Source: Phoronis australis
Lineage: Eukaryota > Animalia > Phoronida
DNA length: 64,000 nt
Reading direction: 5' to 3'
Assembly: GCA_002633005.1 (NCBI GenBank)
Contig: NMRA01000043.1
Location: 159,463-223,462 of the forward strand
Below the pieces are notes generated by a model. The model ran no database searches. It was not told where the DNA came from and saw nothing but the letters and a program-made list of their open reading frames with translations. The translations under genes and the position numbers were made by a program. Positions 4,579 to 64,000 of the stretch are shown one piece after another. Position 1 is the stretch's first letter. Each line of letters starts with the position of its first letter.

Positions 4579-4699
4579 TGCGGATCATCTTAGCTCTTGG
4601 TGGCACTTCAATATTGAGTAGTTTCTCAACAGCTAGACAGTATGCTTGTTCATTGCACATCATCGACACATAGTCGAGTCTGTCAAAGTAGGGCAGCGC
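4579..4699 (-). CDS. NDUFS2: NDUFS2 exon 5 ([40 protein letters not shown])
   Basis: Contains the RLDY quinone-site motif; ctttccttcag acceptor, GTAGGT donor, 121 nt. Confidence 0.98.
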
Positions 4700-5783: not shown

Positions 5784-5864
5784 CTGTGTGAAAGTCTTGT
5801 ACTCTATAAGTTTCTCTGTGGCTCGATGAAGAAGGCCAATGTGTGGATCAGCTCTGACTATGGT
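5784..5864 (-). CDS. NDUFS2: NDUFS2 exon 4 ([27 protein letters not shown])
   Basis: Conserved [19 protein letters not shown]; ctaatttcag acceptor, GTATAG donor, 81 nt. Confidence 0.97.
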
Positions 5865-6430
5865 CTGAAATTAGAACAAGTCTATACATTAACAAGTAAC
5901 TGTGCCTATAACTAGTACAGCACTTTACCAGCCCTCACTATTATGGTGTGTATTTACAACCAGTTGATACTAGTAACAGTGCCAGGAAACATTACATCAG
6001 CTTCAACAGAATGTGCAACATGCAATCTTCATAACTTGACTCTTTTGTCAATATACCGTACATGTAATTAGATACCAAAAGATTTGAAATCATAACTGAA
6101 GAACAACCCGTGCTGGGTTTGAAAGCTTGGACTTTTCAAAAATGTTGACTTTTTTGATGCCTTCTTTTTACATACGTTTGAAGACGCAGATTTTTGGGCT
6201 TCTGGGTTTGGGTTTCTGTGGTATGTAATTCGTCAGATCAGAAATAGCGATATCTGACATCTGAACGGCTTGATATTACAAGACTGGCCAGGCAACATCA
6301 CACATAATGGAAGTCACCGTACCATGTTTTCATAAATAAGAGGACAGAAGTTTCGTTGGTACTACATAAATATCCAGTGTTCCCTTCTACAAATTCTATT
6401 GTTTACAAGTTACATAACAGGGCAACAGCA

Positions 6431-6620
6431 CTTATTTGCCAGCCAATGTGTAGTTTCTAGAATAGTCAATGTATGCCATTCTCAACCCCTTGAGACTTAT
6501 TTGCCAGTCAGTGTGTAGCTTCAAGAATATTCACTGTATGTCATTGTCAACCCCTTGAGACCTATTTGCCAGTCAGTGTGTAGCTTCAAGAATATTCACT
6601 GTATGTCATTGTCATCTTGA
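6431..6620. repeat. 65-bp tandem repeat, ~3 copies
   Basis: c(t/c)tatttgccag recurs at 6431, 6496 and 6561. Confidence 0.85.
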
Positions 6621-6688
6621 GATTGTGTTCACAATATCTCACACACTGGCATTATAATAATGAGTAATGACCAACTACTCATACTTAC

Positions 6689-6798
6689 CTCCCCGTCCAA
6701 TGTTAAGACCAGACGCAGAACACCGTGGGCAGCGGGATGCTGCGGACCGAAATTTAATACAATGTTCTTTACTATCTTCTCTCGAACCTCCGCATTTT
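6689..6798 (-). CDS. NDUFS2: NDUFS2 exon 3 ([37 protein letters not shown])
   Basis: Diagnostic [15 protein letters not shown] motif; ttgttttcag acceptor, GTAAGT donor, 110 nt. Confidence 0.98.
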
Positions 6799-7346
6799 CT
6801 GAAAACAAATAATCACAGTCAACCATTAGCACCAACAGCACCATTAGCACCAACACCAACCATTAGCACCAACAGCACTCTCACAAAGTTTAGTACTGAC
6901 TATAATCCTGATGATATTGAGTATTATTGAAATGTTGATATGAAGCACAGCATCCCGTTTTTACAAAAAAATTAATGTAAAACACAAAAAAGTTAGCAAC
7001 AACTGGGCAGAGTGCAGCTTGAACTTGCATTTATATAACTTGTATGAAGTAACAACTGGGCAGAGTGCAGCTTAAACCTGTATTTATATTCAAATTCAAC
7101 ATTTATGCTTTTGAAGCAGAACTTAAATATCATACGTGCTCTTAACTAAGTATTTAGATGAAGTCATGTTGAAACGCAAGGTCACTCAAGAGACACATCT
7201 TAGTCAGCATTATCCAATAACAAATAACAGAGCTAATGAATAATTTACTGTAGTTTCAAACTGAAAATTCCATTTTATTTTCCTTAAATCTGTTCCATTT
7301 CTTATAAAACTGTTTCATTTCTGTTCAAAATGCTTTCTCAAAGGAA

Positions 7347-7821
7347 CAGGGCTTGGAATGACCAATGACAAAAAACGCGGAAACTTTTATGGCCCAAATC
7401 ATGCGCGCTACCCAGCCTTGAAATGGTCGATGTGAACCTTTACCCGACAAAAATCGGGAGGACTATAAAAAAAAACAAAAAAAAAAACGTTACCACCATC
7501 AGTAGCATGCGTCTGCGTCCTTTTAGCTCGTCGGTCCACTCTCAACCCACACATTTTTGGCTGCAGAGCCGTAGTATTTGTCGCCGCGGTTTACAATAAC
7601 ACGACACGCCATTGAAAATCCCACCTCGCTATCCCTGATATCCCGGCAATGTTGACAATTTACGTTCCTCCGAAACATAAAGAGCAACTTCCGCTTTTCG
7701 CGGTGCCGCGGAAATTTTAGATCAAATACGATTTTTTTTACGCGGAAATATAATAAAATGCGCGGACAGAACATTTGAAAAAAGCGGAAATCCGCGTTTC
7801 CGCGGAAAATTCCAAGCCCTG
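7347..7821. mobile_element. MITE with 13-bp TIR CAGGGCTTGGAAT and 6-bp TSD AAGGAA (hAT-like)
   Basis: TIRs and TSD visible; closely similar inverted copy at 26290-26799. Confidence 0.9.
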
Positions 7822-8244
7822 AAGGAAATAAAACGAGTCACAAGTCGCAGCTGATTATCTAGGCTGTCTTACATATCGTCAGGCAGCGCAGCTCCATTCC
7901 ACCCATGACTGGCTGCATGCAATGCTGAATGTTTTCCAAAATAAGAAAAACAACAGCATAGTAATTAGAAAGAATGTACAACTACTTGAACTTGCCGGAT
8001 GCGAAGCGATCACCGATCGAGTTGTGGCCAGAATTGGTCACCAGTAATGAATTTGATGGATTACACTCCTACACCAGGTTACTGATAATCAGAAACAATA
8101 GAATGCAAGCATCTTCTACTGAAATTTTTTTAGTATGTTCAAAGCCTATAATTCAACAAAAGAAATCTGATTCTGTGAATTCCGTCCACTGTCTGCTACC
8201 CAAAACTCATTGTCGCTGAAATAACTTTTGATGCAGTTAAGTAC

Positions 8245-23469: not shown

Positions 23470-23525
23470 ATGGCGACTTACGGAGGTGATGACAAAATGA
23501 AAGAAATGGAAGCGGAGATGTCCCG
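23470..23525 (+). CDS. RBM42: RBM42 exon 1 (MATYGGDDKMKEMEAEMS-R)
   Basis: Matches the RBM42 N-terminal motif (L)KEMEAEM..FE.E; CG|GTAAAT donor, phase 2. Confidence 0.9.
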
Positions 23526-40273: not shown

Positions 40274-40500
40274 CTTTGAGGAAGAAATATCAGGAGATCC
40301 AAACAATGACATTGTCGATGTCAGCAAGTTCATCATTGGCTCCAACACATTCACTCAGGTGCAGGAACAGTTGCAGCTGTTACGAGGTCAGGTTGCTAAG
40401 CGACAGAAGCTGTCACACAAGGTGGCACCTCCACCACCTCCTCCCAGTGCAGGTGAACAAGTGGTTGCCCCTGGTAACGGCACATTTCCAGGTCTGCAAG
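40274..40500 (+). CDS. RBM42: RBM42 exon 2 (FEEEISGDPNNDIVDVSKFIIGSNTFTQVQEQL...GLQ)
   Basis: Resembles RBM42 FEQEV...IIATNTYQQVQQTL; ttattctag acceptor, AAG|GTAAGG donor; phase 2 in, phase 1 out. Confidence 0.9.
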
Positions 40501-45138: not shown

Positions 45139-45762
45139 CTGCTGCATCAGCACCTCCGCCACCACCACCAACAGGTCCTCCACCGGGACCCCCTCCCAGT
45201 TTCCTGCCACCACAGCTGAGGCACCGAGGCCCGCCACCTCCTGGTGCAAGATTTGGCCCTCCTGTCCCTGGTCCCATGGGCATGCCACCACGTCCGCCAC
45301 CCATGCGCGGCCCTCCCCCTGGCATGGCTCCACCGCCGATGATGCGGCCACCTGGCCCCATGGGACCCAGGCCTATGTATCATCAGTCTCCACAGTTTTA
45401 TGTGCAGCCAACTTCACAAGAAATGCCTCAGGAAAGCAAGCCATCAGGTGTCATTGAAAAACCGAAGGTTGTGTACTCAGCAGCACCTGTGAAAAATACA
45501 GCCAAGCCAGAAGAGAAGGGGAACAAACCATCTCAGCCAGTGGCTGGCTTGCAGCCAACAGTCATCGAGCAGGCATCGCCTATGGTGACAGCTCCGCCTA
45601 CTGTAAACTTTCCAACTGTGACCGTGAATCATGCCCAGCCAGAACAGCCAATGACATCGACAAACACCACAAAAAAGGAAAAGAAGGAAAAGAAGAAGAA
45701 ATTTGTTCGTTGTGCAGCAGGACAGGTGTGGGAGGATAACAGCTTGGCTGACTGGGACCCAG
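45139..45762 (+). CDS. RBM42: RBM42 exon 3 (Pro-rich region to KKKFVRCAAGQVWEDNSLADWDP)
   Basis: Matches RBM42 R.AAG..WED.SL.EWD; cttcacag acceptor, CAG|GTAATG donor. Confidence 0.96.
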
Positions 45763-46345
45763 GTAATGTATTGTGGCCTGTCGTGATCACACCTTGGGGG
45801 TATTGTAAGGGAGGGCAATAGTTGCTCTACTAGGATCTAGTAATGTGTTGTGGCGTATGGTGATCACATCTTGGGGATGCGAGGGAGGACAATAGTTGGC
45901 TTACTGGGACCCAGGTAATGTGTTGTGGCCTATGGTGATCACACCTTTGGGGGTGTTGTGAGGGAGGGGCAATAGTTGGACTTAGTAGGATCCAGGTAAT
46001 GTGTTGTGGCCTATGGTGATCACACCTTTGGGGGTGCTCTGAGGGAGGGGCAATAGTTGGACTTAGTAGGATCCAGGTAATGTGTTGTGGCCTGTCGTGA
46101 TCACGCCTTGGGGTTGTAAGGGAGGACAATACTTGGTCTTACTGGCACCTAAGTAATTTGTTGTGGCCTATGGTGATCACATCTTGGGGGTATTGTGAGG
46201 GAGGGCAATAGTTGGCTTACTGGGACCAAGGTAATGGGTTGTGACCTGTCGTGATCACACTTAGGAGTGTTGTGAGGGAGGGCAATAATTGGTCTCACTG
46301 GAATTCAGGTAATGTGTTGTGACCTGTGGTAATCACACCTTGGGG
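45730..46345 (+). repeat. 75-81-bp tandem repeat x8 containing the exon 3 end and its 5' splice site
   Basis: GTAAT donors at 45763, 45840, 45915, 45996, 46077, 46153, 46231 and 46309. Confidence 0.9.
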
Positions 46346-47814: not shown

Positions 47815-48255
47815 TGGTTACTTTCAGCTGGCAGTTATGCCTACAATAAGTCACCAATGAAACTGTATCTGGTTTCCTAACCACTGATCACCTTCTTTCT
47901 GTTGAGGACATCACATGACTGAAAACATAAAAAACACAGAATTCCTTTGATATTTGATATTTCTGTAGCGTTTTGAAAAATAAATTCTTGATTAGTGCTT
48001 TCTTCTGGACTTAGTTATTGCCCAATGAGCCCAAATTTTAAGTCGTAGGCAATGCATACAAGCATCATTTTCAAATCTGCAATTCTATGGTTGGCCAACA
48101 CGAAATAAACTGAAGCTTTTTCTTGATTCACTAATGGCATCATAGATATAATGGCCTCTATGTTGTTGGTTATGGAAATAGAATCCTATATGTAAGGAAT
48201 ATTATGAGATCAATTTTATGAACATAAAAGGCCTAATTCAGTTTTCATTTTAGCC

Positions 48256-48505
48256 AGCTAAACAGGGTGAATTGCAGTGTAGAGCTAAACAGGGTGAAGT
48301 GCATTGTAAAGCTAAACAGGTTGAAGTGCAGTGTAAAGCTAAACAGGGTGAAGTGCTGTGTAGAGCTAAACAGGGTGAAGTGCAGTGTAAAGCTAAACAG
48401 GGTGAAGTGCAGTGTAAAGCTAAACAGGGTCATGTGCAGTGTAAAGCTAAACAGAGTCAAGTGCAGTGTAAAGCTAAACAGAGTGAAGTGCAGTGTAAAG
48501 CTAAA
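48256..48505. repeat. 27-bp minisatellite x~9
   Basis: agctaaacagggtgaagtgcagtgtaa units. Confidence 0.9.
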
Positions 48506-48778: not shown

Positions 48779-48973
48779 ATGATTTTCGGATATTCTGTGG
48801 TGACCTTGGCAACGAAGTAACTGACGAATCGCTGGCCAGAGCTTTCAACAGGTACCCAAGCTTTCAGAGGGCTAAAGTGATTCGCGATAAGAAAACGAAC
48901 AAGACGCGAGGCTACGGCTTTGTCAGCTTCAAGGATCCCAATGATTTTGTAAAGGCCATGCGGGAAATGAATG
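48779..48973 (+). CDS. RBM42: RBM42 exon 4, RRM (DDFRIFCGDLGNEV...RGYGFVSFKDPNDFVKAMREMNG)
   Basis: Highly similar to the RBM42 RRM (RNP2 IFCGDL, RNP1 RGYGFVSF); tgttgcag acceptor, GTGAGC donor. Final exon (GKYVGSRPIKLRKS...) not found in window. Confidence 0.98.
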
Positions 48974-50952
48974 GTGAGCCTTTCTAGGTTATAGCCATGT
49001 TACATTTCTTCTTGAATGTGCCTACTAAGTTTCAGTACCATATAGTCAGTATCCTGTTCGGTCATTGTCTGCCCGTGGCCTTTACCTTTCTTGTCAAGAA
49101 CTGCTCGACAGATGATGTGAAATTTGGCCCAGAATTATGTGTCCAAGATGTGCTGGGATGAGTTGATTTACTAACACATACCAACTTGGCAGTTTTAGAT
49201 TTTGAAGAGAAATTGCTTAACAAATTTGGCTGAAACTTGACTCAGAATGTGCCGGCACCAGTTGATTTTCAGATCGGTTCAACTACTATGGCAGCCCCTG
49301 TTGGCCATAATAATTTTCAACAAGGAGTTCCATGTTGAAACTTGACACAGAGGTATTTGGTGGGAATGCACCAACCCCAGTCTTCAGATGGAGTCTGCTA
49401 CCCTAGCACCCTCGTTTTCGACTGGAAATGCCTTGTCCATCTGTTTTCGGCAAAAACAACTCAATGAATTTTGTTGAAACTTGACACCAAAGTTTGTAAT
49501 GGGAATGTGCTGGCACCAATCGCTTGTTTGGAAGGAGTCAGGAACCCTCTCAATTTTAGTTTTCAACAAGATTTTCTTTGTCTGCCAATTATTGTCACAA
49601 CAACTTGAAAAATTTTTATGAAACCGTACACAAGGGTTCATGGCTAAGATTCACTGACATTAGGTGATTTTCCGACTTCTGTGTAATCCATGTTATTAGC
49701 TATTATAGTTTTCAACAAGTTTTATCTTGTAAGTTTTGAGGGGATGTTATCGTTTTTTTGGCCAAAAATGTAATTTTGTGATTATTGCTGAATGAGATTG
49801 ACTTGTTGAAGTGATTGGCGTTGACCAGAGCTTTGAAACAACAAAATACATTGTTTTTGTGGTTTTATTACAAGTCGCCAATTCTGACTGTCAGACATTC
49901 ACTACAATCAAGAATGGTATGTTTAGCATTTAAATACACATAATAAATTATTCGGTTACTTCAGGCTTGGAATTTGGGTCAGTTGTAGAGCATTCATCTG
50001 CTATTGCAGAGCAGGTAGGTTCAATTGTGCAGTAGTGCTGATATCTGCAATATTCCTTTTTTGCCCAGATAGTGCTTCTACATTGATTTGCCAAAACCAC
50101 TTCACTGACTTTTGATAGACCTTGACAGAGAGGTGTATTACTAACGTTTTTTAACACCAGTGGATCTTCAGCTTTGATATCAGTTACCTAATTCACTGAA
50201 TTATATCGCTCTAGCTGATACCCAGGCAAAGGTAGTGGAACTACCCAATAACGCCAAAACGGTTCCCTGGGAAACCCCAAGTTTAGAGCGACGTCAGAGT
50301 CACTCGCAAACACCCCTTGTTTGGTGACCTATTAGCCAGGATGTGACGTGTGACCTTTGACCTACATGCCAGGGGCCTGTTTCACAAAATTGGCCAAAAG
50401 AGGCTGGGAACATTAAAGCTCATCAAAAATATCTTTTAAGCAGTACCTGACAAAAGTGTCGTCTTGCAACGTTTTGTTACAAAGTTATTACCTTTTCCCT
50501 GTGAGGAATTTCCAGAAAAAGTCGCAAAATCCACAATTTTTGAAATGCACGCGAAGGAAAAACTCTGTAGTAACCACAGAGTTTCTAATCTCCCTTCACT
50601 TATGAGAAATGAGTGCATGCGCTCCCAGTCATTAAATAAACAGCTGACTAACAAGGTTATCATGTGGGATCGCACTCCAAATTTGAGGTCAAGACTACTG
50701 CATTAGAAAAGCCAGTGAAGCAAGTGATTTTCCAAAAAGAATTCTAAGTGCATTTTAGAATGTATTTGTATACTACAATGCCTTTATAACCAACTTTACA
50801 ATTGCAGGCCATCTGATACACATTGTACCAGACGTGCGCAGGCCTCTGTTGTGAGCCCATTGCACTGATCCCCTGGAACTATTTTTATGCTTTATTAATA
50901 TATGGTTAAAATTGAGCTGAGGAGCTAGAAAACTGGCTCAAGGGTTTAGCAG

Positions 50953-51022
50953 TGTGACCTGGTGGGACTTGAACCCACGACCTCGAGTAAAGAAAGCGGA
51001 CACTTATCAACCAGGCCACACT
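50953..51022 (-). mobile_element. tRNA-derived SINE head
   Basis: Minus strand reads gtggcctggttgataag...gggttcaagtccc (A and B boxes). Confidence 0.5.
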
Positions 51023-52710
51023 TACTCCTCAACCAACCAACTTTACATAGTTATGACTTGCATCAATTGCCTCTTAATCAGACTGGCTGCTACTCGGAAG
51101 TCACCATTGTTTTGCTTACAAAGAACACATTTCCATGTGTCTGTGTTTTGCCATACTAAATAAGGTGACGTGTTTAGTCTTGTGGAAGAAAAATCAATGA
51201 AGTGGCAAGTAACTAGCAGTCTTTTTTTAAGTTTTAAACTAAAAGGAAAATGCTTTGACATCAACAGAAATTCAAAATCGTTACGAACAAATCATAACAA
51301 TACCTGGTGAGAACCACTTTGAATAATGTAACTTAGTCTTTGCGTTTAAGCCTTAAGACAGACATTTGCTATGACGCAGAAATAGTTGTGTGGAGTGTAA
51401 ATCCAAATTTGAGTTTTTTAGTCGTGTAACTGTTCAACAAACAGATCCCAGGGCAGGGAGAAATGGAATTTTTGAGATTTTTTGCGATGGACTAAAAAGT
51501 AATCTAGTCGTGGTTTTGCCTCGAATGTCTAATTGATCCCACCGTGGAGCTAAGATGTAGGATCAGGCGGAGGTTTGGTGCGACTGACCGGCCATCTTGG
51601 AGCCTTGGTGTTTATTTACAGAGTTTTGCTCAGGTATTTTTACCATATGGTTCAATTACTCTCAGAAAGATTGGTTGTAATCGGGTGTTGAAAAGGAGGT
51701 CAATAAAACCCAGTACTGGTATTAACTTACAAAAACAAAACGTTGCTGTGTAAATAACAATAAATGCTAATTGCAAGGAAATTCTTATAGCAGCTATAAA
51801 CTCACATTCCATTGAAGGAATTAAAGTTTGATTTTGACAACTTAGTGCTATAAAATTGGTCTTAATTTGTTCCTTACTTCGTTTGACAAGTGATTTTTGG
51901 TCTTGCAAAGAAGTGACTGTTATACTGTGAGACCATGCTTATCTATCCTGTTCCCAAGTGACTGTTATACTGTGAGACCATGCTTATCTATCCTGTTCTC
52001 AAGCAATAACGAACTGTCACATCTTTCTTAAGTCCAGAAATCACACTTATTTTGACAAAGGAACAATTTGAGACCAATTTCATAACAGTTACAGTTAGTG
52101 ATATAAAAAATTTGCATTGGGATAATAGATCAAAATTTTAATTGAGACCATGCCTTTTTCCCTCGACTGTACTGGATTAGCTCATTCTTGCAATGACTTT
52201 TTTATGAAAACAATGTTCTAAAATACAGGGAACAAGCTTTGGGTCTCAAAACAATTCTTTGGAGTGCCTTTACAAAGACCTTAATTTAAGGACAATGTAT
52301 TTCATTACTAACGGATAAGGACAATGCATTTAATTACTAACGGATAAACAGCTTTCGGTCATTTCCACCCTGTTGATTACAAAACATTTATTTCTTCAAT
52401 TTAGAGATGTGGAGAACCGTTCAGTTTGAGGTTATTAGTGAGAGACTTTAGAGATGTGGAGAACCGTTCAGTTTCATGTTATTAGTGAGAGACTTAGTGT
52501 CAGCTGTGATGTGGGTATTAGCAAACTAATTACTTATGTCGCTTTCACAACTCACAAATTCGTAAACCATGGAATTGCCTGTCGTGATTACAATGCATGG
52601 AGCTGCTTCCTAAGAAAGCTATCTGTATAATTACATGCAATTTTTGCAGCAGATTTGCATAGACAAGACTGTCTGGCACATTTTATTGAGACCCTTCCTT
52701 TTTCACTTAC

Positions 52711-52795
52711 CTCAGGATTCCGTAGCACTACGTCAAACGACCCCTTGATCTCAGTAAAGAGCGCTGTTTTTTTAAATCCTCTGGACTACCTACAC
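52711..52795 (-). CDS. Nested gene candidate exon with stop (G-VGSPEDLKKQRSLLRSRGRLT*; stop at 52728-52730)
   Basis: ttttgtcacag acceptor, GAG|GTAAGT donor 17 nt after the stop; phase matches the 26-nt exon. Confidence 0.5.
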
Positions 52796-53036
52796 CTGTG
52801 ACAAAATTATTCAGGGAAATAGTTGGACATTTGAAGAGGCATTTTTCACTTTAAGTTAAAATAAAAATTTCTGTCTGACACACTCCATCGGTTTGTTCAA
52901 TGTCACCACCCATACCCTGGCTGTGCACATTAGTGTGCTGGGCTCACATTTTCATCATGGAGATTAAGGAAAAGTATCAAAATTTGGCTAACTTTAGAAC
53001 ATCATATCTCAGAAGTAGCTGATCACATTCACTCAC

Positions 53037-53062
53037 CATGTGATCCTTCTTTGATTCTTTTT
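53037..53062 (-). CDS. Nested gene candidate 26-nt micro-exon (R-KRIKEGSH-G)
   Basis: gctgttgccag acceptor, ATG|GTGAGT donor; phase 2 in, phase 1 out. Confidence 0.45.
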
Positions 53063-54786
53063 CTGGCAACAGCAACCAATATCATACGAGGTGCCAGGAT
53101 ATGTTCATTTCTGAGATTTTTCAAATTCCACCTACTTCACAAAGTAAAAGGATTATTATGTAAAATAATTCTAGGTCAAAGTGCAAGCAGATTATTATAT
53201 CGAGCCGAGGGTGTTCAAAACGGAGGGACACAAGAGGGAATCTCCCACTCATTGAGATGGGGAAAGCACCAGTCCCGCACTAAATCAGTTGGATAAAATA
53301 TTTTTTGAAGCACTGCACAGTCTGTGAGTGCGGGTCCACAGTGAACCCTAAGTAGCAGGGGATTGGGGTACGCACACATTTTCTTTGCCTCAATTGTGAG
53401 CTAAATGTCTATGTTTCTGCAACATCTGAATGGAAAACATAATGTTGCAAACTATGGCTATTGTCTTAGGAAGTGTTGGTTTATTTTTTTTGATTCCCAT
53501 ATCAGATGTTCATCAGTTTAGTCTTTCGGTTAATATTCATCTGCATTTAAGGATGACTCCTGTGGTGTAATCTCATCAAACACTGTTGTGTGGGATTTTC
53601 AGGGCCATAAAACCTTGTGGGTGTTTGAAAGTTGTGAAGTGTCGTAACTTGATATTTGTTAATACGGTGTACGATGGCTTTAATCACAAGACGTCATGCG
53701 TTTTCATTGTCTGAGTATACCTCTGTCTTCTGCTCAGGAACTGAGCTTGATGAGTTTCTAGTGAATGCGGAAATTGATGGAGCCAGTCGCAAAGCAGTTG
53801 CGTTTTCTTAATGTACTTCTGAATGGTGTTCCATCAGATCAGTGTGGTCTTGTTTTGAGATGGTCTGTGAATAGATCTCTGTTGACGTCATTCACTACAG
53901 GCCAGCAAATGTCACTACTTGTTTGGCTTTGAAATTTCTGCCTCTTTTCTGACGCGCTCGGATGAGCGCAAAGTAGGTGACGAAAGGGCACGTGGCTTGT
54001 GACGTGAGCAACAAAGCTATTCAATCAGTCCAGTTTCCTCAGTTATTCAACCATCAAGTCTTTTTTATACACTAATGAAGTGTCGATGCCTAAGTTATTG
54101 GTTCATTTAAGTGGCTTAAGATTGACTCTTTTATGCAGTGCCAAGTTTAAAGATCTAAAGAAGGATTTGAGTGCTGAGGAAAAAGTGTCAAGCAAATTAA
54201 TGGGAGATATCCTCAAATAGTTTTTGATAATCAAGTTGTAATTTGATAAGTAAGTTAATTTAGAAATACTGTGATGGTCGTACCTGATTTAATGCCCATC
54301 TCCAACTTTCTGCATTGTGAAAAACATTAGGTGTATTAGGTGGCGGAATACGGTAGCTGGGAAAAGTCAGATTAAAAGTCTGCTAGTGGTATCTATGAAA
54401 TTTGTGAGGCAGCAGCATGTAATTGTCCTGTATTCACTGGTTTATTTCAGTTATGCTTGACTTTCTATGATCTTGCCCTGAAATATCTGAAATCTTGTAA
54501 ATAAAACAATACAAAAAATGACATTCCAGACAATTGAACTGCTCTACAATTACAGTATGTTCAAATTCTTAATTTCGTGGCAATTCAAATCATGATGATT
54601 GTGATTATGCAGCTGTCATTTCAAGTCTGAAGAACTATTTTTATTGGTACTTTGGTATAAAATCTAGTGCTGTCGATGTTTTTCTGTATGTCTTGCTGAA
54701 GTTTCAGTTCGTTTTAAGTAAAATCTGAGCGAGTGTCCAGTTCTGTTCAGTCATTAATTTGCTTCCACCTGATCAGCTCTCTGAGG

Positions 54787-54910
54787 TCAGTCCGAGGTCA
54801 ATCTGGTATAGAACAACTGTCTTGCATTGTGTAATTGAAATCGGATTCCCTTTGTTGGAAGCGTATTCTCGACAAGACTCCTCAATGTAACAACAGGACT
54901 GGAGTATTTC
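54787..54910 (-). CDS. Nested gene candidate alternative terminal exon (R-KYSSPVVTLRSLVENTLP...TRLTSD*)
   Basis: Strong ttattttcctcctag acceptor; open in phase 2 for 40 codons. Confidence 0.4.
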
Positions 54911-57342
54911 CTAGGAGGAAAATAAATGAGATAGATTCTTAAAGCTGTGCTTCTTGTCCATATACTTAACACGGAATGAAGAAAGTTTCTGATTAAGCCT
55001 TTCACACTTGGCTCAATGCAATTTCCTTATTTTTCGGCATACCATATGATTGAGTTGTAATTAACATTGTACATTCCTCTAATGATCACGTCTTGATGTT
55101 CAATTAAAAATTAACTATCAACTGGCAACCGACAAAAGTATGTATTTTCTGAAACTGAGAGTAAAAGCATTTTGTGTCATTCACAACACTGTGCCATTCA
55201 TCATGTATCTGTCATGAAAATGTTGCTCCTAAAAGTTACATCACCAGCATACATTAAACTTTATTTAATAAAAAACTGATAAAAATGCTTAAAACCATGT
55301 CTGGGGTTGTCTAATGGTTATTGGGCATGTCAGTCTAGCACTAGTTTTAGATAGCAATGATACATGAACAGTGATGAATCTTTTGTTACTTGTTCAGCTT
55401 AGGAATTGAAACTTACTGAATCTGTTCAATATACTCTCTAGCCGCAATTGCTTGCTTTTTGTAGACAGGCCATCGTTAATTAGCGCATCTGAGCGTTTGC
55501 CAGGTCCCCAGTTTCTACCTGAAATCAGAAGGATATCTTAAATATGTCGTAAACAGTTTCAGCATTATAACACCAAGCTGAATGTGACAACAGATGGAAA
55601 TGACGTCACCCATGATTTGGTGGAAACTTATCTTTCATGTCATTTCTTATTTATTAGGTATTATTTTTTTAGAAAATAGTTTGCAGACTAGTGTGCAAAC
55701 TATTAGAGGAAAAAATGTATTGACACTTTCATTGTCAGCGACACTTGGCATTGACTCTGATGACATTAATATTTACATTCATGCAGCACTTATTCAGCAC
55801 ACTGGTTTTTCAAATTTCTTACCAAAGTGAATATGAAGAAGAGCTTAATTTTATTGCTAGTATGGTACACAACATTTGGTAAACTTTAAATTATTTCTAG
55901 CAAAGTAATTGGCCTTAATGGCAATGGTGACAATTTTGACATTTATTTTTGTGCGGAATGAGTGGAGAGTTACCGCAAGCTATTATACCTGAGCATTGAC
56001 ACTTTGTTGTCAAATTCACCTATTTACAGCAGATAATTTGTGATTTTAATGCTGATCCAAGACCAAAGTTACTGTTTAACATTCACCAACCCTTACCATT
56101 GGTGTGATATGTCTGTTAGTCAACGAGAGGTTATCTATTGAACAGACTTCAATTTTTTTAAACACTCCACCTTGACAATGGGTACTTCTCCTACACTGCC
56201 GATCATGCCGTTCATTGTTTGCTGCTTATGCATGTAAATAGTAAGTATGTGACAATTTCAAGAATTGTTATGGAATCACAATGCGAAGTGACAGATTTCG
56301 ATATCGATGTGTCAAGGTACATTTCAATTTGATTCTTAGTTCCAATTTTTCCCACTAAGTATATTGCAAAATTATGACTTCTTGGTATCTTTTGAAGAGT
56401 TTGATTGAGAAATATGAAAGAAGAAATAAATTGCACTGGATGATTCCTTAGTTGGAATCCTATTGTACATGACAATTGTGCTGCTGGAATTGATACGATT
56501 GGCAAGTTAACTGCTTGTGTGTAAGCAAAAGTGAATTAATTTTACAAACGAGAATTGAATGGAAAATAATGAAATTCTTCCCTAAATCGTATTTAATCGA
56601 ATAACTAGAAATGTGTATCGCCCGTGTAGCATCAAAAGTCTATCATCCGTGCTGTACTCTGAATATTCACTGAGCTGTGAATATTCAGATTCAGTAAGCT
56701 GTGAAGAGAGAGATCATTCGCAGTTATCATTGGTTGCGTTGCAGTAAATCTCCACTTATTTCGAACAAAAAATTAAACACATTTCTCTGATAGTCAAGAT
56801 GTGTGAAGTAAACTGAATATAGAGATTTCATGGTTGGCAAATGTGTGAAATTAAGTGAGCAACCAAGCGTTGCCAACAACCCCTTGCACGGCATGTTTGC
56901 AACAACATGAGATTCCCAAGTGAACGAAGGAGTGAATATACAGTGGTCAGACCTTATTAACTCAGTCGGTTAAAAAGGTGTGCTAAACTGACCATTTGTG
57001 AATTGGGTAAGGCAAGAAATTCACAAGTGAACGAAGGAGTAAATATACAGTGGTCAGACCTTATTAACTCAGTCGGCTAAACACACCATTTGTGAATTGG
57101 GCAAGTGTAGCCTCATGCAAAATAACTGAGGGACAAAATATTATCTTAAATATATTCAAATAATTTTAGGTGTACAAAATGCAGCTAGTGAGCTAAATTA
57201 GTAGAGCATTGCCATAGCCACATAGCAGTATAAATTTGTCTGAAATTGTTGATTTGAAGTAATTACTGAGCTTGGATAGAAGTGACAGTTATAATTGCTT
57301 GAGTCATTAAGTTGGTTTGAGCTGGTCCTTCACTTTATGTAC

Positions 57343-57387
57343 CTAGCATGACCTCGAGTTATGACCAACTCTTTGTTCTTTTCAAAC
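57343..57387 (-). CDS. Nested gene candidate exon (R-FEKNKELVITRGHA-R)
   Basis: tgtgattttaag acceptor, TAG|GTACAT donor; 45 nt, phase 2/2. Confidence 0.4.
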
Positions 57388-58029
57388 CTTAAAATCACAA
57401 CAGTTTGAGTTTCGTTTGGGTAAGTGGTCAGGGACCTCGTTCACCTGAGGAGAAAGGTGCTGTGCCTTCTGAGAGGGGATTTTGGGGATTTTTTTCGGGT
57501 GAGGGATGTGTTTTCCATCACAAAAAGCAAACTTGATTTAGACAACTTACAGTCATGAAAGTGACCTCAAACTGTTTCTCAGTTAAGCTGGAGGCAGTAT
57601 TAAAGCCTCCTAACTGATTGTTCATTATTGCTTGAGACCTGGCTTTACAAGTTGGCTTGTCAAGGCTGGTATTTTTATGCCCAGAATAGTCCCAAGGAAT
57701 AACAACCTGTCAGTTCTTTGCAATTCCAATGATCAGTTCTCATCTTAGTGAGGAACAGGTATGTGGTGCAAATCAAAAGTTACCTTATTAGACAGAATGT
57801 GGTTTGTAGCAACATCACAGGGGGTTATTGTGCTCCTTTTAGAACATTCATTAAAATCTCGCTAATTTAGAACACAATGCTTGTCCATGTTCAATTTCTA
57901 TATTATAACCACCATCAGATGATGTTTTGAAAAAATACCATTTATAACGATATTAGAAGCATTTGAAAAATGAAGAAGGACAATTTTTGCAATCATTTTT
58001 GTCTGAAATTGGGACAGATTTTACCGTAC

Positions 58030-58153
58030 CTCTCATGCACTATACGGTATACGTACGGTAAGTTGGGGAATGCAACCGTGTATCCATTCCAAATGAAATT
58101 GGCCGAAATTCTCGCAACGCTATTTATATCGCCATTGTGTGATGTGCCAGTTA
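58030..58153 (-). CDS. Nested gene candidate exon (TGTSHNGDINSVAR...PYVYRIVHE-R)
   Basis: aatcccacag acceptor, GAG|GTACGG donor; phase 1 in, phase 2 out, bridging the ATG exon and 57343-57387. Confidence 0.3.
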
Positions 58154-58326
58154 CTGTGGGATTGGCTGATGCCCTACCTTCAACTGGGATCATTCATCGG
58201 CTTCCATATTTGAGCAATAAATGATCTCAATTGAAGATCAAGCAGCAGTCCATCATAGGGTAGCTAAGGATTGACCTGCGGGTCACGTAGTGGTAAGATC
58301 GAGAACATCGCCAGACTTTCGCCACA

Positions 58327-58820
58327 CAGGCCTTTATTCAGGATTTCGAATATAGGGTGTCCAAAATGGGGTTCCCAGTATTCCAGGGCGTCCATGATTC
58401 CGACGCGTAAACCCCCCACCCCCAGCAATCCGTCCAAACACACACATATTTTTACAAAACAGGCATAGACCAAGGTTTTTACATCTAAGTTTACAAATCA
58501 GCCTTCTGTAGTCAGCATTTTTACTAAAAAAAACTGTAGAGGAAGAGTTTTACAATGCCATCAACCAAGTGTGAGTGTAGCAACATTGTATATACTTTGT
58601 ATATACATTGTATATTTCTTCCTGCTTTAAAAAAAAAGAGTCCCCACAGTGAGCCTTCAGAGGCTTCCTAGTATTCATTACAATGTGTGAGTCCAAACAT
58701 GAAAGGTTCCTATTGACAGTGGGCGTCCAAAATGATACATTGGACGTCCTTGCCAGGGCATCCAGATTAGTGCTAGGGCGTCCAAATGGACGCCCAGGAC
58801 GTACGCTGCATAAAGGCCTG
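58327..58820. mobile_element. hAT MITE, TIR CAGGCCTTTAT, 8-bp TSD TCGCCACA
   Basis: tcgccaca|caggcctttat ... ataaaggcctg|tcgccaca; related end at ~21870-22089. Confidence 0.92.
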
Positions 58821-59554
58821 TCGCCACATTTCATCCAGAATAGAGGACAGCTGCATTACCCTTATTACATAAACTATAGTCTTTAGTGTACGATAGGTTT
58901 GCTCTAAAAAAATCGCGATAAGATCCCTCGAGCAGTTTAGCAAAGGTTGTCTTGTTTGGTCACCAGTTGAACTGTTAAATTCTGCCAATAGAACCATACC
59001 CTCTTCCTGTACACACTCGGCTGGACGACAATTGTCTTAATTTCTTCACTTCAGTAAATGTGGCTTACGATTATTTAGGACACTACAAACATTCCAAATT
59101 TGGCCAATTTTGGAACATTTTATTTCAGAAATGGCTGATCATATAATTTGTGTGAAACTTTCACGTTCTATGCTTTATGCACTGTGCTCAAAAAGCTGAT
59201 AGTAATTCGTTTTAAAATGTTCCACTTTTGCATGAAAGGCTAACAAAAACCATGATTTTGTGATTTTCACGAAAAAATCTCTCAATAGTTTCATAAAATG
59301 AAAAGGAAATGGTGTTTTAGAAAACTGTAACATTGAGATCTCATCTCGAACCAATTTTATTACGTTAATACCGTTCTTTTGCCATCATTGTATCTTTTTT
59401 TGCTAAATTTTGCTGTAAGAAGTGGCCATATGACTCAATTAACGGCAGATAGATTAAAAGCCGAATATCATTCTACAAGCTTTCTGCTTTTACTGAGATG
59501 TAATCTACACTTTTGTAGATATTGTACTAAATGTGCAGACTTATCAGCATGGTC

Positions 59555-59821
59555 CTACATAACCTTTATAAAAGAATTTTTACTTGAACCAAATATGAAT
59601 CTTGATGGCCAGTATAGTGTTTTTTTCGGCTCGCTTTCTTGTGATTGTGCTGGCGATGCTCCCTCCTCTCTGCTTTTTGATATGCTTGAGTGGCAGCCGG
59701 GGCTCCAGTTCCGCTGGTGACATCCAAATAAAAGTCTTTTGTTTATCACAGGTTGACATGTGGCTAGGACGGCAAAGCAGGTCAGTGTGACGACAACTGT
59801 CACATTGGAGTAGGTCCACAT
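59555..59821 (-). CDS. Secreted peptide precursor, first coding exon (signal peptide, QPVINKR, LLFGCHQRNWSPGCHSSIS); elevenin-like
   Basis: Acceptor cttgtttccag 1 nt before ATG; hydrophobic MWTYSNVTVVVTLTCFAVLATC; KR site; C-x8-C. Candidate exon ends at 59584 (phase 1) or 59564 (phase 0); 88 aa if unspliced. Confidence 0.65.
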   Translation of the reverse strand: MWTYSNVTVVVTLTCFAVLATCQPVINKRLLFGCHQRNWSPGCHSSISKSREEGASPAQSQESEPKKTLYWPSRFIFGSSKNSFIKVM

Positions 59822-60284
59822 TCTGGAAACAAGTTTGAGATGTATTAAAACAAATGTCTGTGTCAGGGCCACACGTGTTGCTGTGAAAGGGACATTTCGC
59901 TGTTGTTTAGCTGTCAATTTAAAGCCTAAGCACTTTGGAAAAAAAGCCATTTCCATGCTCATCTCATTTTGAATTGTTGACAAATGAGACGGTAACTCCG
60001 GGCAATAGTCGTGAAGGATCTTCGAGTTTTATGCTTGGTCATCCCCTATGAATTTGACCTCTTTTCTTTAGTCGCTGATGGTATCGTTGTGATCATGGCT
60101 CCTGTGGCAGCAATATAATGAAACAGATTTTATCAGTTTAAGTCGCTTAATTTAAGTTTTGTTCATAAGCAGCTAAACACTGAAGATATGCAGTTTTAAG
60201 ATATTCACAAACAAAACATAATAATGTAGAGTGTGGTCCACACATTCTACGAGTTACACACAAATTACTCCTGAAATGGTTATC

Positions 60285-61270
60285 GAGTTACTCTTGGAAC
60301 GAGTTATCACTAGGTTTAGTAATTACTGTGCGTTTGCACGCGCAGAGTACTGTTGTTCCTGGGTTTTTTTCAATTTTATTCTTATTCTTCTTCTTCTTCC
60401 AACTTTGAGGCTTAATAACTCCAAATTGGGTGCAGATACGCTCTTTAAATTCAGAATATGATTTTTGACAGTACATAAATTTTGATTCGTTATATAATCA
60501 TATTCCATATTGCACCGGAAGAGGTTGGTTGGTGCAAAGGTGAAATAATTTTCAAAATGCTACTTCTTCAGTTATAAAGCTATCTTTTTCAAATTCGATG
60601 CACAGGTATAAGTTAACATGACAATTCTTTTCAATTTCAGCACACTGGTGTAAGTCAACCTGCCAGTTGAACACCCTACTTTACTACGCAATAGGCCTAA
60701 CCAATGAGAAAAATAGGTCGAAGGTCATTGAGTGCAAACTAAAATTTTGAGCTAGAGACTTCAATATTACATATCTGTTTACTAGATTTGATTGAGTTTG
60801 AATTCTAAATTTTCGGGTCATTTGGTGCATCCATGGGGTCATTAGGTGCATTTTTCTTCTGAAAGTTTGACCAATTCATTCATCTTGTATTCTGAAGTGC
60901 TTAAAGTTAAAGATCTGTGATTCTTAGCATCAACCACACTTTTAATTGAGCGTTTTTCCCTCATCGGGGCTCATAATGCACCGGAAGAGGTCAATTAGTG
61001 GAAAGGTCATCAAAATGTTAACATGTAATTTCTCCTACAATTGTAAAGAATTCCTTCTCGTATTGGTAAACCGATTACTGTCAATAACTTCCCATAACAA
61101 TCCCAGTATTACACACACGCAGAGTCCATTATTGTCAAAACGTGACAATAATCTTTCTAGTTGTGTGTATACTATTTTTGCTAGGCCAATTTTGACTCAC
61201 ATGTGAAAACTTACGCCATTTTATCAAGATAGGTTAATTTGTTCTTGGCTATGGCAACTCTCCACTTATT
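60285..61270 (+). mobile_element. Possible Helentron/DINE-like non-autonomous element
   Basis: ttactgtgcgtttgcacgcgcagagta hairpin followed by a cttctt microsatellite and internal subrepeats (tgcaccggaagagg x2). Confidence 0.45.
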
Positions 61271-61602
61271 TCACACTAAATATTTGCCAAACGTGTCATT
61301 TTTGCATTTTTGAATTCTGGTTACCTCATTGCAAATAATGCAAAATTTACCGAAGTTGTTAAATGACATCTCCACTGTACAAGCTATGTTAGTGATATAG
61401 ACTAGAATTTTCTTCATCTTTGTTTTTGTGGAAAAATTTGACAAAATAGAATTTCACTTGCCGGACAAATTGTGAGAGACACTGGTGCAAGTACAAGGTT
61501 AGTGTGGATACAAATCTGCCAATATGACTAAGTTACAGGTGTCTATTTGCACGGTACTTGTGCCAAGTTGAAGGATGAGTAGTGTACTTAACTGTGGGGG
61601 GG

Positions 61603-61843
61603 CAAGTTGCTCTAGAGCAAGTTGCTCTAGAGCAAGTTGCTCTAGAGCATGTTGCTCCAGGGCAAGTTGCTCTAGGGCATGTTGCTCCAGGGCATGTTGC
61701 TCCAGGGCATGTTGCTCTAGGGCAAGTTGCTCTAGGGCAAGTTGCTCTAGGGCAAGTTGCTCTAGAGCATGTTGCTCCAGGGCAAGTTGCTCTAGGGCAT
61801 GTTGCTCCAGGGCATGTTGCTCTAGGGCATGTTGCTTTAGGGT
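61603..61843. repeat. 15-bp minisatellite x~16
   Basis: gttgctcyagrgcaw units. Confidence 0.92.
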
Positions 61844-62786
61844 AGCTCTTAACATGACATGACTACGATGACTACTTAATGTAGCAAGTACCTCCTCAAT
61901 ATGAGACAAATTTTCCAACTCGACAGAAATTCACACTGTCAAGCAGAAATCACACACATATTACATTCCAACCCACAGGGTTGATTCTCTCAGTAACTGG
62001 AATAAAAATACAGGGTGTCCAAAATGTTCATACATTTTAAATGACAACAACTGATGTTTATGGACTTGGGAACAAGATCAGGGACTTAAATTCAGGTGGT
62101 GATCAAAAAAGGAATTTAGTCTTTATTAACCGGAAATAAATTCATTGTTTATTTACTTGTTCGGTAGGAGATAAATCGAATATAGCATGAATAGTGAATT
62201 TACGTTTGCCAGTAGAATTGTGCGATTAATTTCCGTTCTCCAAAACTGCGTGCCTTTGCCATTTATTTAGTATTTACTTTATCTAGGCTATTAATTGTAG
62301 TATTTACAATGACGGTAGCCCCATAAGTTTTCACTGCTTTCCATGGGTGCCCTCACATGTAATGGTTCATGCGTCTGCTTTCACAGCAAAGTGTAACCAT
62401 GCAATAGTTGAGGGCTAGACTATGAACTGCACTGCTTGTTAAATCATGGTCTTTGTTCAGGTGCATGGTGCTAATTGTCATTTGTTGCTCGGTCTAATTT
62501 TAACAGTAAAGACGTTGTTAAAGGTGGTGGCGTAAGTGCCAGGAAACTGGTCGTGAAATGGGTCATTGAGAACATTGCTCTGTGTTGCTGTTATGACAAT
62601 GTTTTTGCATTTATCCAGAAATTTGCTGTTTTCCTGACGTTTAAATCCACTGTAAATGTGTCTTTCATCTTAAAAAATAACTGCAGATTTAGACTCCTTT
62701 TCGCTTTGAAGTTGGTCTCAAAATGTCCTTTCTCAAAGCCGAGGTGATTTCTGGTCTTGAAAAGAACTAACAGTGTGTTGCTGCTT

Positions 62787-63755
62787 GAGGCTATGGTGTG
62801 TTGGTCATTGTGTGCACCATCTACTGTATGAGCCAAAAGTATTCACTATATGAGGCTATGGTGTGCTGGTCATTGTATGCACCATCTACTGTATGAGCCA
62901 AAAGTATTCACTATATGAGGCTATGGTGTGTTGGTCATTGTGTGCACCATCTACTGTATGAGCCAAAAGTATTCACTATATGAGGCTATGGTGTGCTGGT
63001 CATTGTATGCACCATCTACTGTATGAGCCAAAAGTATTCACTATATGAGGCTATGGTGTGTTGGTCATTGTGTGCACCATCTACTGTATGAGCCAAAAGT
63101 ATTCACTATATGAGGCTATGGTGTGCTGGTCATTGTATGCACCATCTACTGTATGAGCCAAAAGTATTCACTATATGAGGCTATGGTGTGTTGGTCATTG
63201 TGTGCACCATCTACTGTATGAGCCAAAAGTATTCACTATATGAGGCTATGGTGTGCTGGTCATTGTATGCACCATCTACTGTATGAGCCAAAATTATTCA
63301 CTGTATGAAGCTATGGTGTGTTGGTCATTGTATGCACCATCTACTGTATGAGCCAAAGTATTCACTATATGAGGCTATGGTGTGCTGTTCATTGTATGCA
63401 CCATCTACTGTATGAGCCAAAAGTATTCACTATATGAGGCTATGCTGTGCTGGTCATTGTATACACCATCTACTGTATGAGCCAAAAGTATTCACTACTT
63501 GAGGCTATGCTGTGCTGGTCATTGTATGCACCAACTACTGTACAAACCAAAAGTATTCACTACTTGAGGCTATGCTGTGCTGGTCATTGTATGCACCAAC
63601 TACTGTACAAGCCAAAAGTATTCACTACTTGAGGCTATGCTGTGCTGGTCATTGTATGCACCAACTACTGTAAAAGCCAAAAGTATTCACTACTTGAGGC
63701 TATGCTGTGCTGGTCATTGTATGCGCCATCTGCTATAGGAGCCAAAAATATTCAG
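62787..63755. repeat. 65-bp minisatellite x~15 with a 130-bp dimer higher-order structure
   Basis: Alternating gtgttgg..gtgtgc and gtgctgg..gtatgc units in the first 8 copies, then a gradient of new variants. Confidence 0.92.
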
Positions 63756-64000
63756 GTAAAGTGACCTTGACGGTTGGTCGGAAGCCATAGTCATTGTCAG
63801 AGTAATCTTCATGATCGAGAATGAATGGGAATGAACAGTAAAGTTAAATGGGAATGAACAGTAAAGTTAAATGGCAAAGGCATTTTGTAATTAGAATTTG
63901 ACCACCTTAATAGTTAACGTATTACCAGTCATTTTTGCTGGTAACATAGTTACCTGCATGATGGAAAACAGTATTTTGTGTGATTACTTGTGTCTTGTGT

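What the first reader, a model, noticed from the sequence alone, without database searches (positions are those of the whole stretch)
52711..59822. Antisense gene nested in RBM42 intron 4 encoding a divergent elevenin-like (C-x8-C) secreted peptide precursor
Seen: a splice acceptor 1 nt before an ATG, then MWTYSNVTVVVTLTCFAVLATC-QPVIN-KR-LLFGCHQRNWSPGCHSSIS-KSR and an acidic spacer. Known: signal peptide + short pro-region + dibasic site + disulfide loop is neuropeptide/toxin precursor architecture. Elevenin/L11/SNET-1 peptides have C-x8-C ending aromatic-x-P-x-C, followed by five residues and a basic site (e.g. CTRFVFAPACRGVSA). The spacing is the same here (W-S-P-G-C, five residues, K), but the usual DC..F.F and CRG residues are replaced. 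Inference: a new elevenin paralogue or a new cyclic peptide family hidden inside a housekeeping gene; the ORF track masks it by starting upstream in the intron.
Basis: partly seen in the sequence, partly recalled or inferred. Interest (0 to 1): 0.8.

Follow-up and report, generated by a model that had tools for sequence, protein, structure and literature searches.

The report
Two-peptide hormone gene inside RBM42
A small gene that is transcribed and spliced on the strand opposite the housekeeping gene RBM42, and likely lies inside its last intron, is predicted to make a secreted precursor of two related peptides, one disulfide-looped and one amidated, that likely descend from the GnRH/corazonin hormone family rather than from elevenin; no relative was found in the searches run.

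Summary
Stranded RNA reads cover it and show a spliced minus-strand transcript: exon 55518-55417 joins exon 54910 in 5 reads from 3 of 4 runs. The end at 52711 has no sense reads. Exon 55518 encodes RNWGPGKR, a second, amidatable copy of the RNWSPG core in the cysteine loop. The 59822 exon is its only in-frame signal-peptide partner in the window; that join is inferred. The loop keeps elevenin's spacing but lacks D5, R16 and G17, which elevenin needs, so it is not an elevenin. The second peptide ends like corazonin/AKH/ACP (W-x-P-G-KR) but lacks pyroglutamate, position after the signal peptide and tail cysteines. No homologue was found. RBM42's last exon is outside the window, so nesting is inferred. 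The scan earlier noted a similar two-peptide gene in an RBM42 intron of an arthropod-like genome (e1-7500828; unchecked, sequence unseen). Verdict: a real orphan neuropeptide precursor, probably a derived GnRH/corazonin-type gene.

The parts
59584..59822 (-). Exon A, first coding exon: signal peptide, short pro-piece, KR, peptide 1, acidic spacer, KK and the start of peptide 2. Donor at 59584 (phase 1) inferred; 59590 is a weaker alternative.
   Evidence: strand-correct depth 0.78 (X1) and 0.43 (X3) in bin 59539-59795
59756..59821 (-). Predicted signal peptide, residues 1-22
   Evidence: hydropathy up to 2.74, no charged residue in the core; SignalP not run
59678..59734 (-). Predicted peptide 1 (residues 30-48), after KR, with C34-x8-C43 loop holding RNWSPG; not amidated; C-terminal cut at K-S-R uncertain
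   Evidence: sequence; processing inferred from dibasic-site rules
59584..59620 (-). N-terminal part of predicted peptide 2, after KK (or after the single R at residue 74); ends in FIFGS, echoing LLFG in peptide 1
   Evidence: depends on the inferred A-B join
55417..55518 (-). Exon B (102 nt, phase 1 in and out): RNWGP, amide donor G and KR (55501-55493), then a cysteine-free tail. Only this phase is open.
   Evidence: acceptor score 6.8; frame test; Pfam AKH E 0.15, 13.0 bits against a cut-off of 22.9; 3' junction in reads
54640..54910 (-). Exon C, terminal: nine more codons, stop at 54884-54882, 3' UTR, AATAAA at 54645
   Evidence: GT..AG joint skipping 506 nt in X1 (1 read), X2 (1), X3 (3); strand-only depth 1.94/1.06/2.49 in bin 54656-54912
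52711..52795 (-).
   Evidence: no sense-strand depth
23470..48974 (+). Host gene RBM42, coding exons 1-4 (23470-23525, about 40274-40500, 45139-45762, 48779-48974); last coding exon lies outside the window
   Evidence: tblastn with P0001-P0003, splice ends, Pfam RRM_1 E 1.3e-17
48975..64000 (+). Inferred RBM42 intron 4 (at least 15 kb), which holds the peptide gene on the opposite strand
   Evidence: phase-1 donor after the MNG codons; same intron position in 33 of 80 related loci; no last exon here

Best explanation
A transcribed, spliced gene on the strand opposite RBM42 likely encodes a 122-residue secreted precursor that would be cut into two related W-x-P-G peptides, one disulfide-looped and one amidated, likely a derived member of the GnRH/AKH/corazonin superfamily that would signal through a receptor of that group. 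Shown: minus-strand transcription of exons A, B and C, the B-C splice, the open frame, and two copies of RNW[SG]PG. Inferred: the A-B splice; entry into the secretory pathway; cleavage at KR, KSR, KK and GKR; a C34-C43 disulfide; amidation to a W-G-P-amide end; origin by internal duplication of one peptide unit, with cysteines gained in the first copy (or lost in the second); activation of a GnRH/corazonin-type GPCR. Confidence by step: real peptide-precursor gene about 0.9, A-B join about 0.85, GnRH/corazonin ancestry and receptor about 0.5.
For: B-C joint in 5 reads from 3 of 4 runs, all first mate on +, the opposite of RBM42 exon 4 (first mate on - only), so the RNA is minus-strand. Only phase 1 of exon B is open. 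Of 436 GT sites between 64000 and 55560 only 4 follow a Met plus hydrophobic core in that phase, all in exon A. Depth arithmetic in X3 needs at least one further read on or just upstream of exon B (281-284 bases against at most 276 from the three junction reads), and exon A holds about 110 bases on the same strand, which is consistent with an A-B read. RNW.PG occurs twice and W.PGKR once in the window, never in 60 resampled windows. Exon B's only Pfam match among 24,736 models is Adipokin_hormo. Its end matches published precursors: Nasonia ACP ends WGPGKR and Terebratalia corazonin NWSPGKR (PMC8557429 supplement); starfish GnRH ends GWGPG-amide (PMC4923880). Precedents: nematode RPamides are diverged ligands of GnRH-like receptors (PMC11004728); starfish kisspeptin precursor has a first copy with two cysteines and a second without (PMC4772807).
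Against: The A-B joint was not listed (threshold 3 reads per run) and its donor is weak (-0.9). The Pfam match is below cut-off and not significant (E 0.15-0.22). The shared motif is only 5-6 residues. Most AKH/corazonin hallmarks fail: no N-terminal pyroglutamate on either peptide, not directly after the signal peptide, no cysteine pair in the tail, both introns phase 1 against a shared phase-0 intron (PMC5024129). No homologue or the Atlas (16, 48), so conservation is untested. Expression is low and the tissue unknown. Reads may come from a different individual or population than the assembly.
Confidence: 0.5

Rival explanations
1. The same two-peptide precursor founds a separate neuropeptide family. 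The W-x-P-G-KR ending resembles GnRH/corazonin by convergence and the receptor belongs to another GPCR clade.
For: Fails most AKH/corazonin hallmarks; pro-piece, KR and two internal copies are the layout of ordinary multi-peptide precursors; no homologue; motifs absent from the supplement texts searched, apart from known corazonin/ACP entries.
Against: AKH is the single Pfam model touched by exon B and the ending equals that of known ACP/corazonin/GnRH peptides.
Confidence: 0.3
2. Exon A is a divergent elevenin paralogue acting through an elevenin receptor.
For: C-x8-C spacing, Pro at C+7 and an aromatic residue at C+5, five residues then a basic site.
Against: D5, R16, G17, I4 and V18 are absent, and each of G17, R16, P13, D5 matters for receptor activation. 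All four phoronid L11 precursors seen in full or part keep C-x-K-[YF]-P-F-A-P-x-C-R-G. A second, linear, amidated copy of the core is not an elevenin feature in the precursors seen.
Confidence: 0.07
3. Exons B and C are the tail of a conventional GnRH/corazonin gene whose first exon (signal peptide, Gln, start of the peptide) lies beyond 64000 or is split, and exon A is a separate or alternative exon.
For: A-B joint not observed; weak donor; exon B opens in the middle of a corazonin-like peptide.
Against: Exon A is transcribed on the same strand, is the only in-window signal-peptide exon in the right phase, and ends in FIFGS, completing a repeat of its own LLFG...RNWSPG unit. The tail has no cysteines.
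Confidence: 0.08
4. The product is a secreted defensive or venom-type peptide that mimics a hormone, not an endogenous signal.
For: Disulfide loop and no orthologue found; cone-snail venoms hold elevenin-like peptides (PMC10175484).
Against: One copy in the window, low expression in three RNA runs, ordinary prohormone cleavage and amidation sites, intronic position in a housekeeping gene.
Confidence: 0.05

Closest known systems
Lophotrochozoan corazonin precursors (e.g. Terebratalia, Novocrania, Lingula, Phoronis entries in PMC8557429 supplement, part 10 of 387 read)
   Same: Signal peptide; peptide ending S-x-x-W-x-P followed by G-KR; amidated Pro; short precursor.
   Different: There: one peptide, starting with Gln right after the signal peptide, aromatic-Ser core, two cysteines in the tail. 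Here: pro-piece and KR first, two copies, the first looped by cysteines, F-G-S core, no tail cysteines.
AKH / ACP / proto-AKH (Pfam PF06377; hallmarks in PMC5024129, passages; Nasonia ACP)
   Same: W-G-x-amide ending; WGPGKR identical to Nasonia ACP; weak Pfam match to profile positions 6-17.
   Different: Longer than 10 residues, no pyroglutamate, no FS/FT/YS at 4-5, no cystine bridge in the tail, phase-1 introns, score 13 against cut-off 22.9.
Starfish GnRH (PMC4923880, passages)
   Same: W-G-P-G at the C-terminal end.
   Different: Single copy with pyroglutamate, ends in Gly-amide; a single conserved intron in deuterostome GnRH genes.
Elevenin / L11 / SNET-1 (PMC10175484, passages; phoronid entries)
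   Same: C-x8-C loop with an aromatic residue at C+5 and Pro at C+7.
   Different: Lacks D before the first Cys and R-G after the second; has a second linear amidated peptide.
Starfish kisspeptin-type precursor (PMC4772807, passages)
   Same: Layout only: two related peptides, the first with a cysteine pair, the second without.
   Different: Kisspeptins end L-x-F-amide; no sequence likeness to RNW[SG]PG.
Nematode RPamides NLP-2/22/23 (review PMC11004728, passages)
   Same: Diverged Pro-amide peptides that act on GnRH-like receptors; a model for how this gene could work.
   Different: Different motif and phylum; no sequence comparison made.

Membership tests
Elevenin/L11 | Two cysteines separated by 8 residues | tested here: met
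   C34-x8-C43; definition
Elevenin/L11 | F11 and P13 inside the loop | tested here: met
   P41 at C+7 exact; W39 at C+5 is a conservative swap
Elevenin/L11 | I4-D5 before the first cysteine | tested here: not met
   F-G at these places
Elevenin/L11 | R16-G17-V18 after the second cysteine (G17, R16 most conserved non-Cys residues) | tested here: not met
   H-S-S at these places
Elevenin/L11 | Activates an elevenin receptor | not testable with these tools
   needs a cell assay
AKH ('true AKH', PMC5024129) | W-G-x-amide C terminus | tested here: met
   WGP followed by G-KR in exon B; amidation predicted
AKH ('true AKH', PMC5024129) | 8-10 residues, pyroglutamate at 1, FS/FT/YS at 4-5 | tested here: not met
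   under the A-B model peptide 2 has 11 or 18 residues, no Gln start, F-G-S core
AKH/corazonin precursors | [quoted passage not shown] | tested here: not met
   pro-piece and KR come first; no in-window exon gives signal peptide plus Gln in phase with exon B
AKH/corazonin precursors | Cysteine pair in the C-terminal associated peptide | tested here: not met
   no Cys between GKR and the stop; compare
AKH/corazonin precursors | Shared phase-0 intron in the coding region | tested here: not met
   B-C intron is phase 1 (shown); A-B intron phase 1 (inferred); figure legend and text of PMC5024129 only, figure not seen
AKH (Pfam PF06377) | Score above the gathering cut-off 22.9 | tested here: not met
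   12.4-13.0 bits on exon B alone; the joined precursor was not scanned
Lophotrochozoan corazonin | S-x-x-W-x-P-G-KR ending | tested here: met
   W-G-P-G-KR direct; the Ser is the split codon of the inferred A-B join; by-eye comparison
GnRH/AKH/corazonin superfamily | Activates a GnRH-, AKH- or corazonin-type GPCR | not testable with these tools
   needs deorphanization; no genome held to list receptors
Calcitonin/DH31 | N-terminal cysteine pair and C-terminal Pro-amide in one peptide | tested here: not met
   both features occur but over 50 residues apart with KSR and KK between; definition from PMC6586643
PFGx8amide | Many copies of KR-PFG-x8-G-KR | tested here: not met
   oyster precursors in PMC4200219 supplement; here two copies, no P-F-G start
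NdWFamide | N/H-W-F/Y-G-KR directly after the signal peptide | tested here: not met
   entries; here N-W-G-P-G-KR deep in the precursor
Nested (intronic, antisense) gene | Host exons on both sides | tested here: inconclusive
   upstream exons found; last RBM42 exon not in 48975-64000, so it must lie beyond the gene if RBM42 is intact and colinear

The most novel reading that the evidence does not exclude
This is the lophotrochozoan member of an undescribed, protostome-wide branch of the GnRH/AKH/corazonin superfamily: a two-copy precursor that has sat antisense in an RBM42 intron since before arthropods and spiralians split, missed because annotation pipelines mask it. Here its first copy has become disulfide-cyclised. 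It would supply ligands for orphan GnRH/corazonin-type receptors such as oyster AKHR2.
Probability: 0.2. Interest if true: 0.8.

Novelty: new variant of a known kind. Interest (0 to 1): 0.5.

Why it matters
GnRH, AKH, ACP and corazonin are among the best-mapped neuropeptide systems, and the lophotrochozoan precursors seen here all carry one peptide straight after the signal peptide. A two-copy version with a disulfide-looped first copy would be a new design in the family and a direct candidate ligand for receptors of this group that are still orphan (oyster AKHR2 stayed orphan in PMC5024129; PMC8557429 suspects a second annelid GnRH receptor). If the unverified arthropod-like case in an RBM42 intron is the same gene, RBM42 synteny becomes a way to find it across protostomes. 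If not, it is one more lineage-restricted orphan neuropeptide gene, useful mainly as an annotation fix.

Tried and rejected
Own-genome search: no genome is held, so no paralogue, receptor or ordinary elevenin/corazonin gene could be checked. Run search: no RNA holder listed by shared words; three raw RNA runs and one contig set were added by species label. Homologue searches: exon A ORF, 1 candidate, none at E<=10, lengths 48-154 only; exon B frame, 9 candidates, none at E<=10, lengths 71-2000; phmmer over 1.84 billion representatives gave 1 hit, P0011, a 665-residue tandem-repeat ORF without signal peptide or dibasic context, rejected; metagenome contigs, 224 pattern matches, 0 relatives; ESM Atlas, best 0.84 and 0.81, below the lead threshold, with neuropeptide S, PDH, AKH-type and GnRH clusters only at 0.77-0.79. 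Synteny: the best 80 of 206 RBM42 relatives in metagenome contigs; 33 of 80 hold the whole last intron (51-2311 nt); none showed W-x-P-G-KR and the best tblastn E-values over all 80 were 0.55 (exon A) and 3.0 (exon B); 5 of the 33 had a looser aromatic-G-basic-basic motif that I did not follow up. A look-alike in L026 is an alternative frame of a neighbouring gene's last exon and is not kept in the 5 other loci, rejected. Candidate exons at 57444, 56698, 56112-56097 and 52795 have no sense reads. MAFFT did not align the two copies across the split pieces; the repeat is by eye plus motif count. Families considered and dropped: elevenin, calcitonin/DH31, PFGx8amide, NdWFamide, vasotocin-related (needs a neurophysin domain), MCH-type (peptide sits at the precursor's C terminus), kisspeptin. 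Literature: five motif terms in main texts gave 5 unrelated papers (listing only); RBM42 with neuropeptide gave 4 unrelated papers (listing only); one search listed none with RBM42 among its top 20 of 366. Supplement text searches: PMC8557429 (long cells cut), PMC6425005 (two files cut when stored), PMC5996578, PMC4200219 (two scanned files unread). Supplements of PMC4923880 (intron maps, Fig. S9) were not opened and bear on the gene-structure comparison. By-sequence look-ups in earlier findings: nothing. No folding or complex job was run: short flexible peptides without an alignment would not be informative.
Full report
Observation. The 11-residue hydropathy peaks at 2.74. A pattern of Met, uncharged hydrophobic core, dibasic site and C-x8-C within 60 residues occurs once in the window and in 0 of 60 dinucleotide-resampled windows (pattern set after seeing the sequence). 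The acceptor is weak on my generic matrix (0.75) and a stronger one lies at 59880; either leaves the ATG intact.

Host gene and organism. tblastn with named relatives places RBM42 coding exons near 23470, 40272, 45138 and 48775 on the plus strand, with in-phase splice ends and an RRM at E 1.3e-17. The last coding exon is not found between 48975 and 64000 (best 5 of 12 residues). In 33 of 80 related loci that hold both exons the intron sits at the same place. The peptide gene therefore lies in intron 4 if RBM42 is intact and colinear; this is inferred. The ten RBM42 hits were 33-41% alike over the proline-rich part where aligned at length; the 8 named ones are a nemertean, a brachiopod and six molluscs, so the animal is probably a lophotrochozoan without a close annotated relative. 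An earlier unchecked note calls the genome likely molluscan. No whole genome is held.

The real gene model. RBM42 exon 4 has depth only from first mates on minus (2.29, 1.53, 2.84 against 0), which fixes the library orientation. At 95% likeness, depth only from first mates on plus, that is minus-strand RNA, lies on 59539-59826 (X1, X3; X2 0.07 on both strands), 55417-55518 (all three) and 54656-54912 (all three). One GT..AG joint is listed: 55417 to 54910, 506 nt skipped, in 1, 1 and 3 reads of X1, X2, X3; the contig set X4 does not show it. Repeat-derived reads on both strands cover 52857-53113 and 58254-59281. Exon B (55518-55417) is open in one phase only and reads RNWGPGKR, then a cysteine-free tail that stops at 54884 in exon C; AATAAA lies at 54645. 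The A-B joint is not listed, since listing needs 3 reads in a run. Three things support it. Of 436 GT sites upstream of exon B in the window, only 4 follow a Met and hydrophobic core in the needed phase, all in exon A. In X3 the bin over exon B holds 281-284 read bases, more than the 276 that three junction reads can give, while exon A holds about 110; an intronic read could also explain this. And the 59584 donor, though weak (-0.9, best phase-1 site in the exon), ends exon A on FIFGS, so that F-G followed by RNW[SG]PG appears twice. RNW.PG occurs twice in the window and never in 60 resampled windows. The model gives 122 residues (120 with the 59590 donor).

How it most likely works. By standard prohormone rules (established knowledge) the signal peptide is removed, convertases cut at KR, KSR, KK and GKR, and the Gly before KR is used for amidation. 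This would release peptide 1, 19 residues with a disulfide loop and a free C terminus, and peptide 2, linear, 18 residues (11 if cut at the single Arg) ending W-G-P-amide. Both show the same RNW[SG]P core, the signature of an internal duplication. They would act on a GPCR. The amidated ending points to the GnRH/AKH/corazonin group: AKH is the only Pfam model exon B touches (13.0 bits, E 0.15, cut-off 22.9), Nasonia ACP ends WGPGKR and Terebratalia corazonin NWSPGKR (PMC8557429 supplement), and starfish GnRH ends GWGPG-amide (PMC4923880). Against membership: no pyroglutamate, not directly after the signal peptide, no tail cysteines, phase-1 introns (hallmarks in PMC5024129). So it works like a GnRH/corazonin-type ligand at about even odds and is not filed as AKH or corazonin. 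Diverged Pro-amide ligands of GnRH-like receptors exist in nematodes (PMC11004728), and a two-copy precursor with cysteines in the first copy only exists for starfish kisspeptin (PMC4772807).

Elevenin test. PMC10175484 (passages) names I4, D5, C6, F11, P13, C15, R16, G17 and V18 as conserved. The loop here has F, G, C, W, P, C, H, S, S at those places: 3 of 9 identical, 1 conservative, 5 absent. G17A moved EC50 from 25 to 8200 nM at one Aplysia receptor and above 10,000 nM at another. The spacing match is real but the receptor-critical residues are missing, and the repeated motif survives without cysteines in copy 2. Elevenin is unlikely (0.07).

Relatives. None was found: word-based searches with exon A and exon B, phmmer over 1.84 billion representatives (one spurious repeat protein), metagenome contigs, ESM Atlas, supplement texts for nemerteans, brachiopods, phoronids, molluscs and scallop (some cells and files cut). 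These searches used single exons and have little power for short peptides. In the 33 complete last introns among 80 related RBM42 loci (51-2311 nt, mixed eukaryotes) no such gene was seen, which shows the nesting is not universal; a look-alike in L026 was an alternative frame of another gene. An earlier unchecked finding, e1-7500828, reports a gene with two GnRH/AKH/corazonin-like FxSxGWG peptides antisense in an RBM42 intron of an arthropod-like genome. I reached the GnRH-like two-copy reading before seeing it. I could not see its sequence or intron, and by-sequence look-ups returned nothing. It is a lead, not support. No paper linking RBM42 to a nested neuropeptide gene appeared (listings only).

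Papers seen. PMC8557429: outline, passages, sections 5, 12, 13, supplement part 10 of 387 and term searches. PMC4923880, PMC6586643, PMC5024129, PMC10175484, PMC5627052, PMC11004728, PMC4772807 and bioRxiv 10.1101/2024.07.20.604414: passages. PMC4200219 and PMC5996578: passages and supplement term searches. PMC6425005: supplement term search only. Figures were not available.

Verdict. Observation partly confirmed: the exon is real, the extent is wrong and a second peptide was missed. Interpretation partly supported: a secreted peptide gene, yes; elevenin, no. It is a real, lowly expressed orphan neuropeptide precursor and a new variant of a known kind. Interest 0.5. The bold case, an ancient RBM42-nested two-copy branch of the GnRH/corazonin superfamily, has probability about 0.2 and would merit 0.8.

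Noticed in passing
window 2-946 (+): Open frame of at least 315 codons made of a 22-residue acidic, aromatic-rich repeat; Pfam matches look like repeat artefacts. Coding status unknown.
   Followed up: no
window 4553-7837 (-): Exons of what looks like the complex I subunit NDUFS2 (name recalled from motifs; Pfam gave no name for the two pieces scanned).
   Followed up: no
window 45760-46340 (+): Just after RBM42 exon 3 a roughly 65-nt tandem repeat carries repeated copies of the exon's own donor context (CCAG/GTAAT), a possible array of alternative 5' splice sites (seen).
   Followed up: no
window 57444, 56698 and 56112-56097 (-): Strong acceptor sites (scores 8.0, 8.5) and a 16-nt exon-like piece with a strong donor inside the inferred A-B intron; the 16-nt piece would fit exon B's phase. 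No reads in three RNA runs; could be rare cassette exons.
   Followed up: partly
window 60282-61350, 50670-51203, 51738-52271: Multi-copy transcribed repeats with deep, 90-95% alike read cover; the one near 50920-51030 looks by eye like a tRNA-derived SINE on the minus strand (not tested).
   Followed up: no
window 48250-48500, 61570-61860, 62780-63740: Tandem repeats (units of about 24, 15 and 60-65 nt) that create long spurious ORFs.
   Followed up: no
L026:8720-8900 and matching places in L004, L014, L022, L025, L038: In 6 related loci a gene ends tail-to-tail with RBM42; its last exon encodes a conserved stretch with a hydrophobic C terminus.
   Followed up: partly
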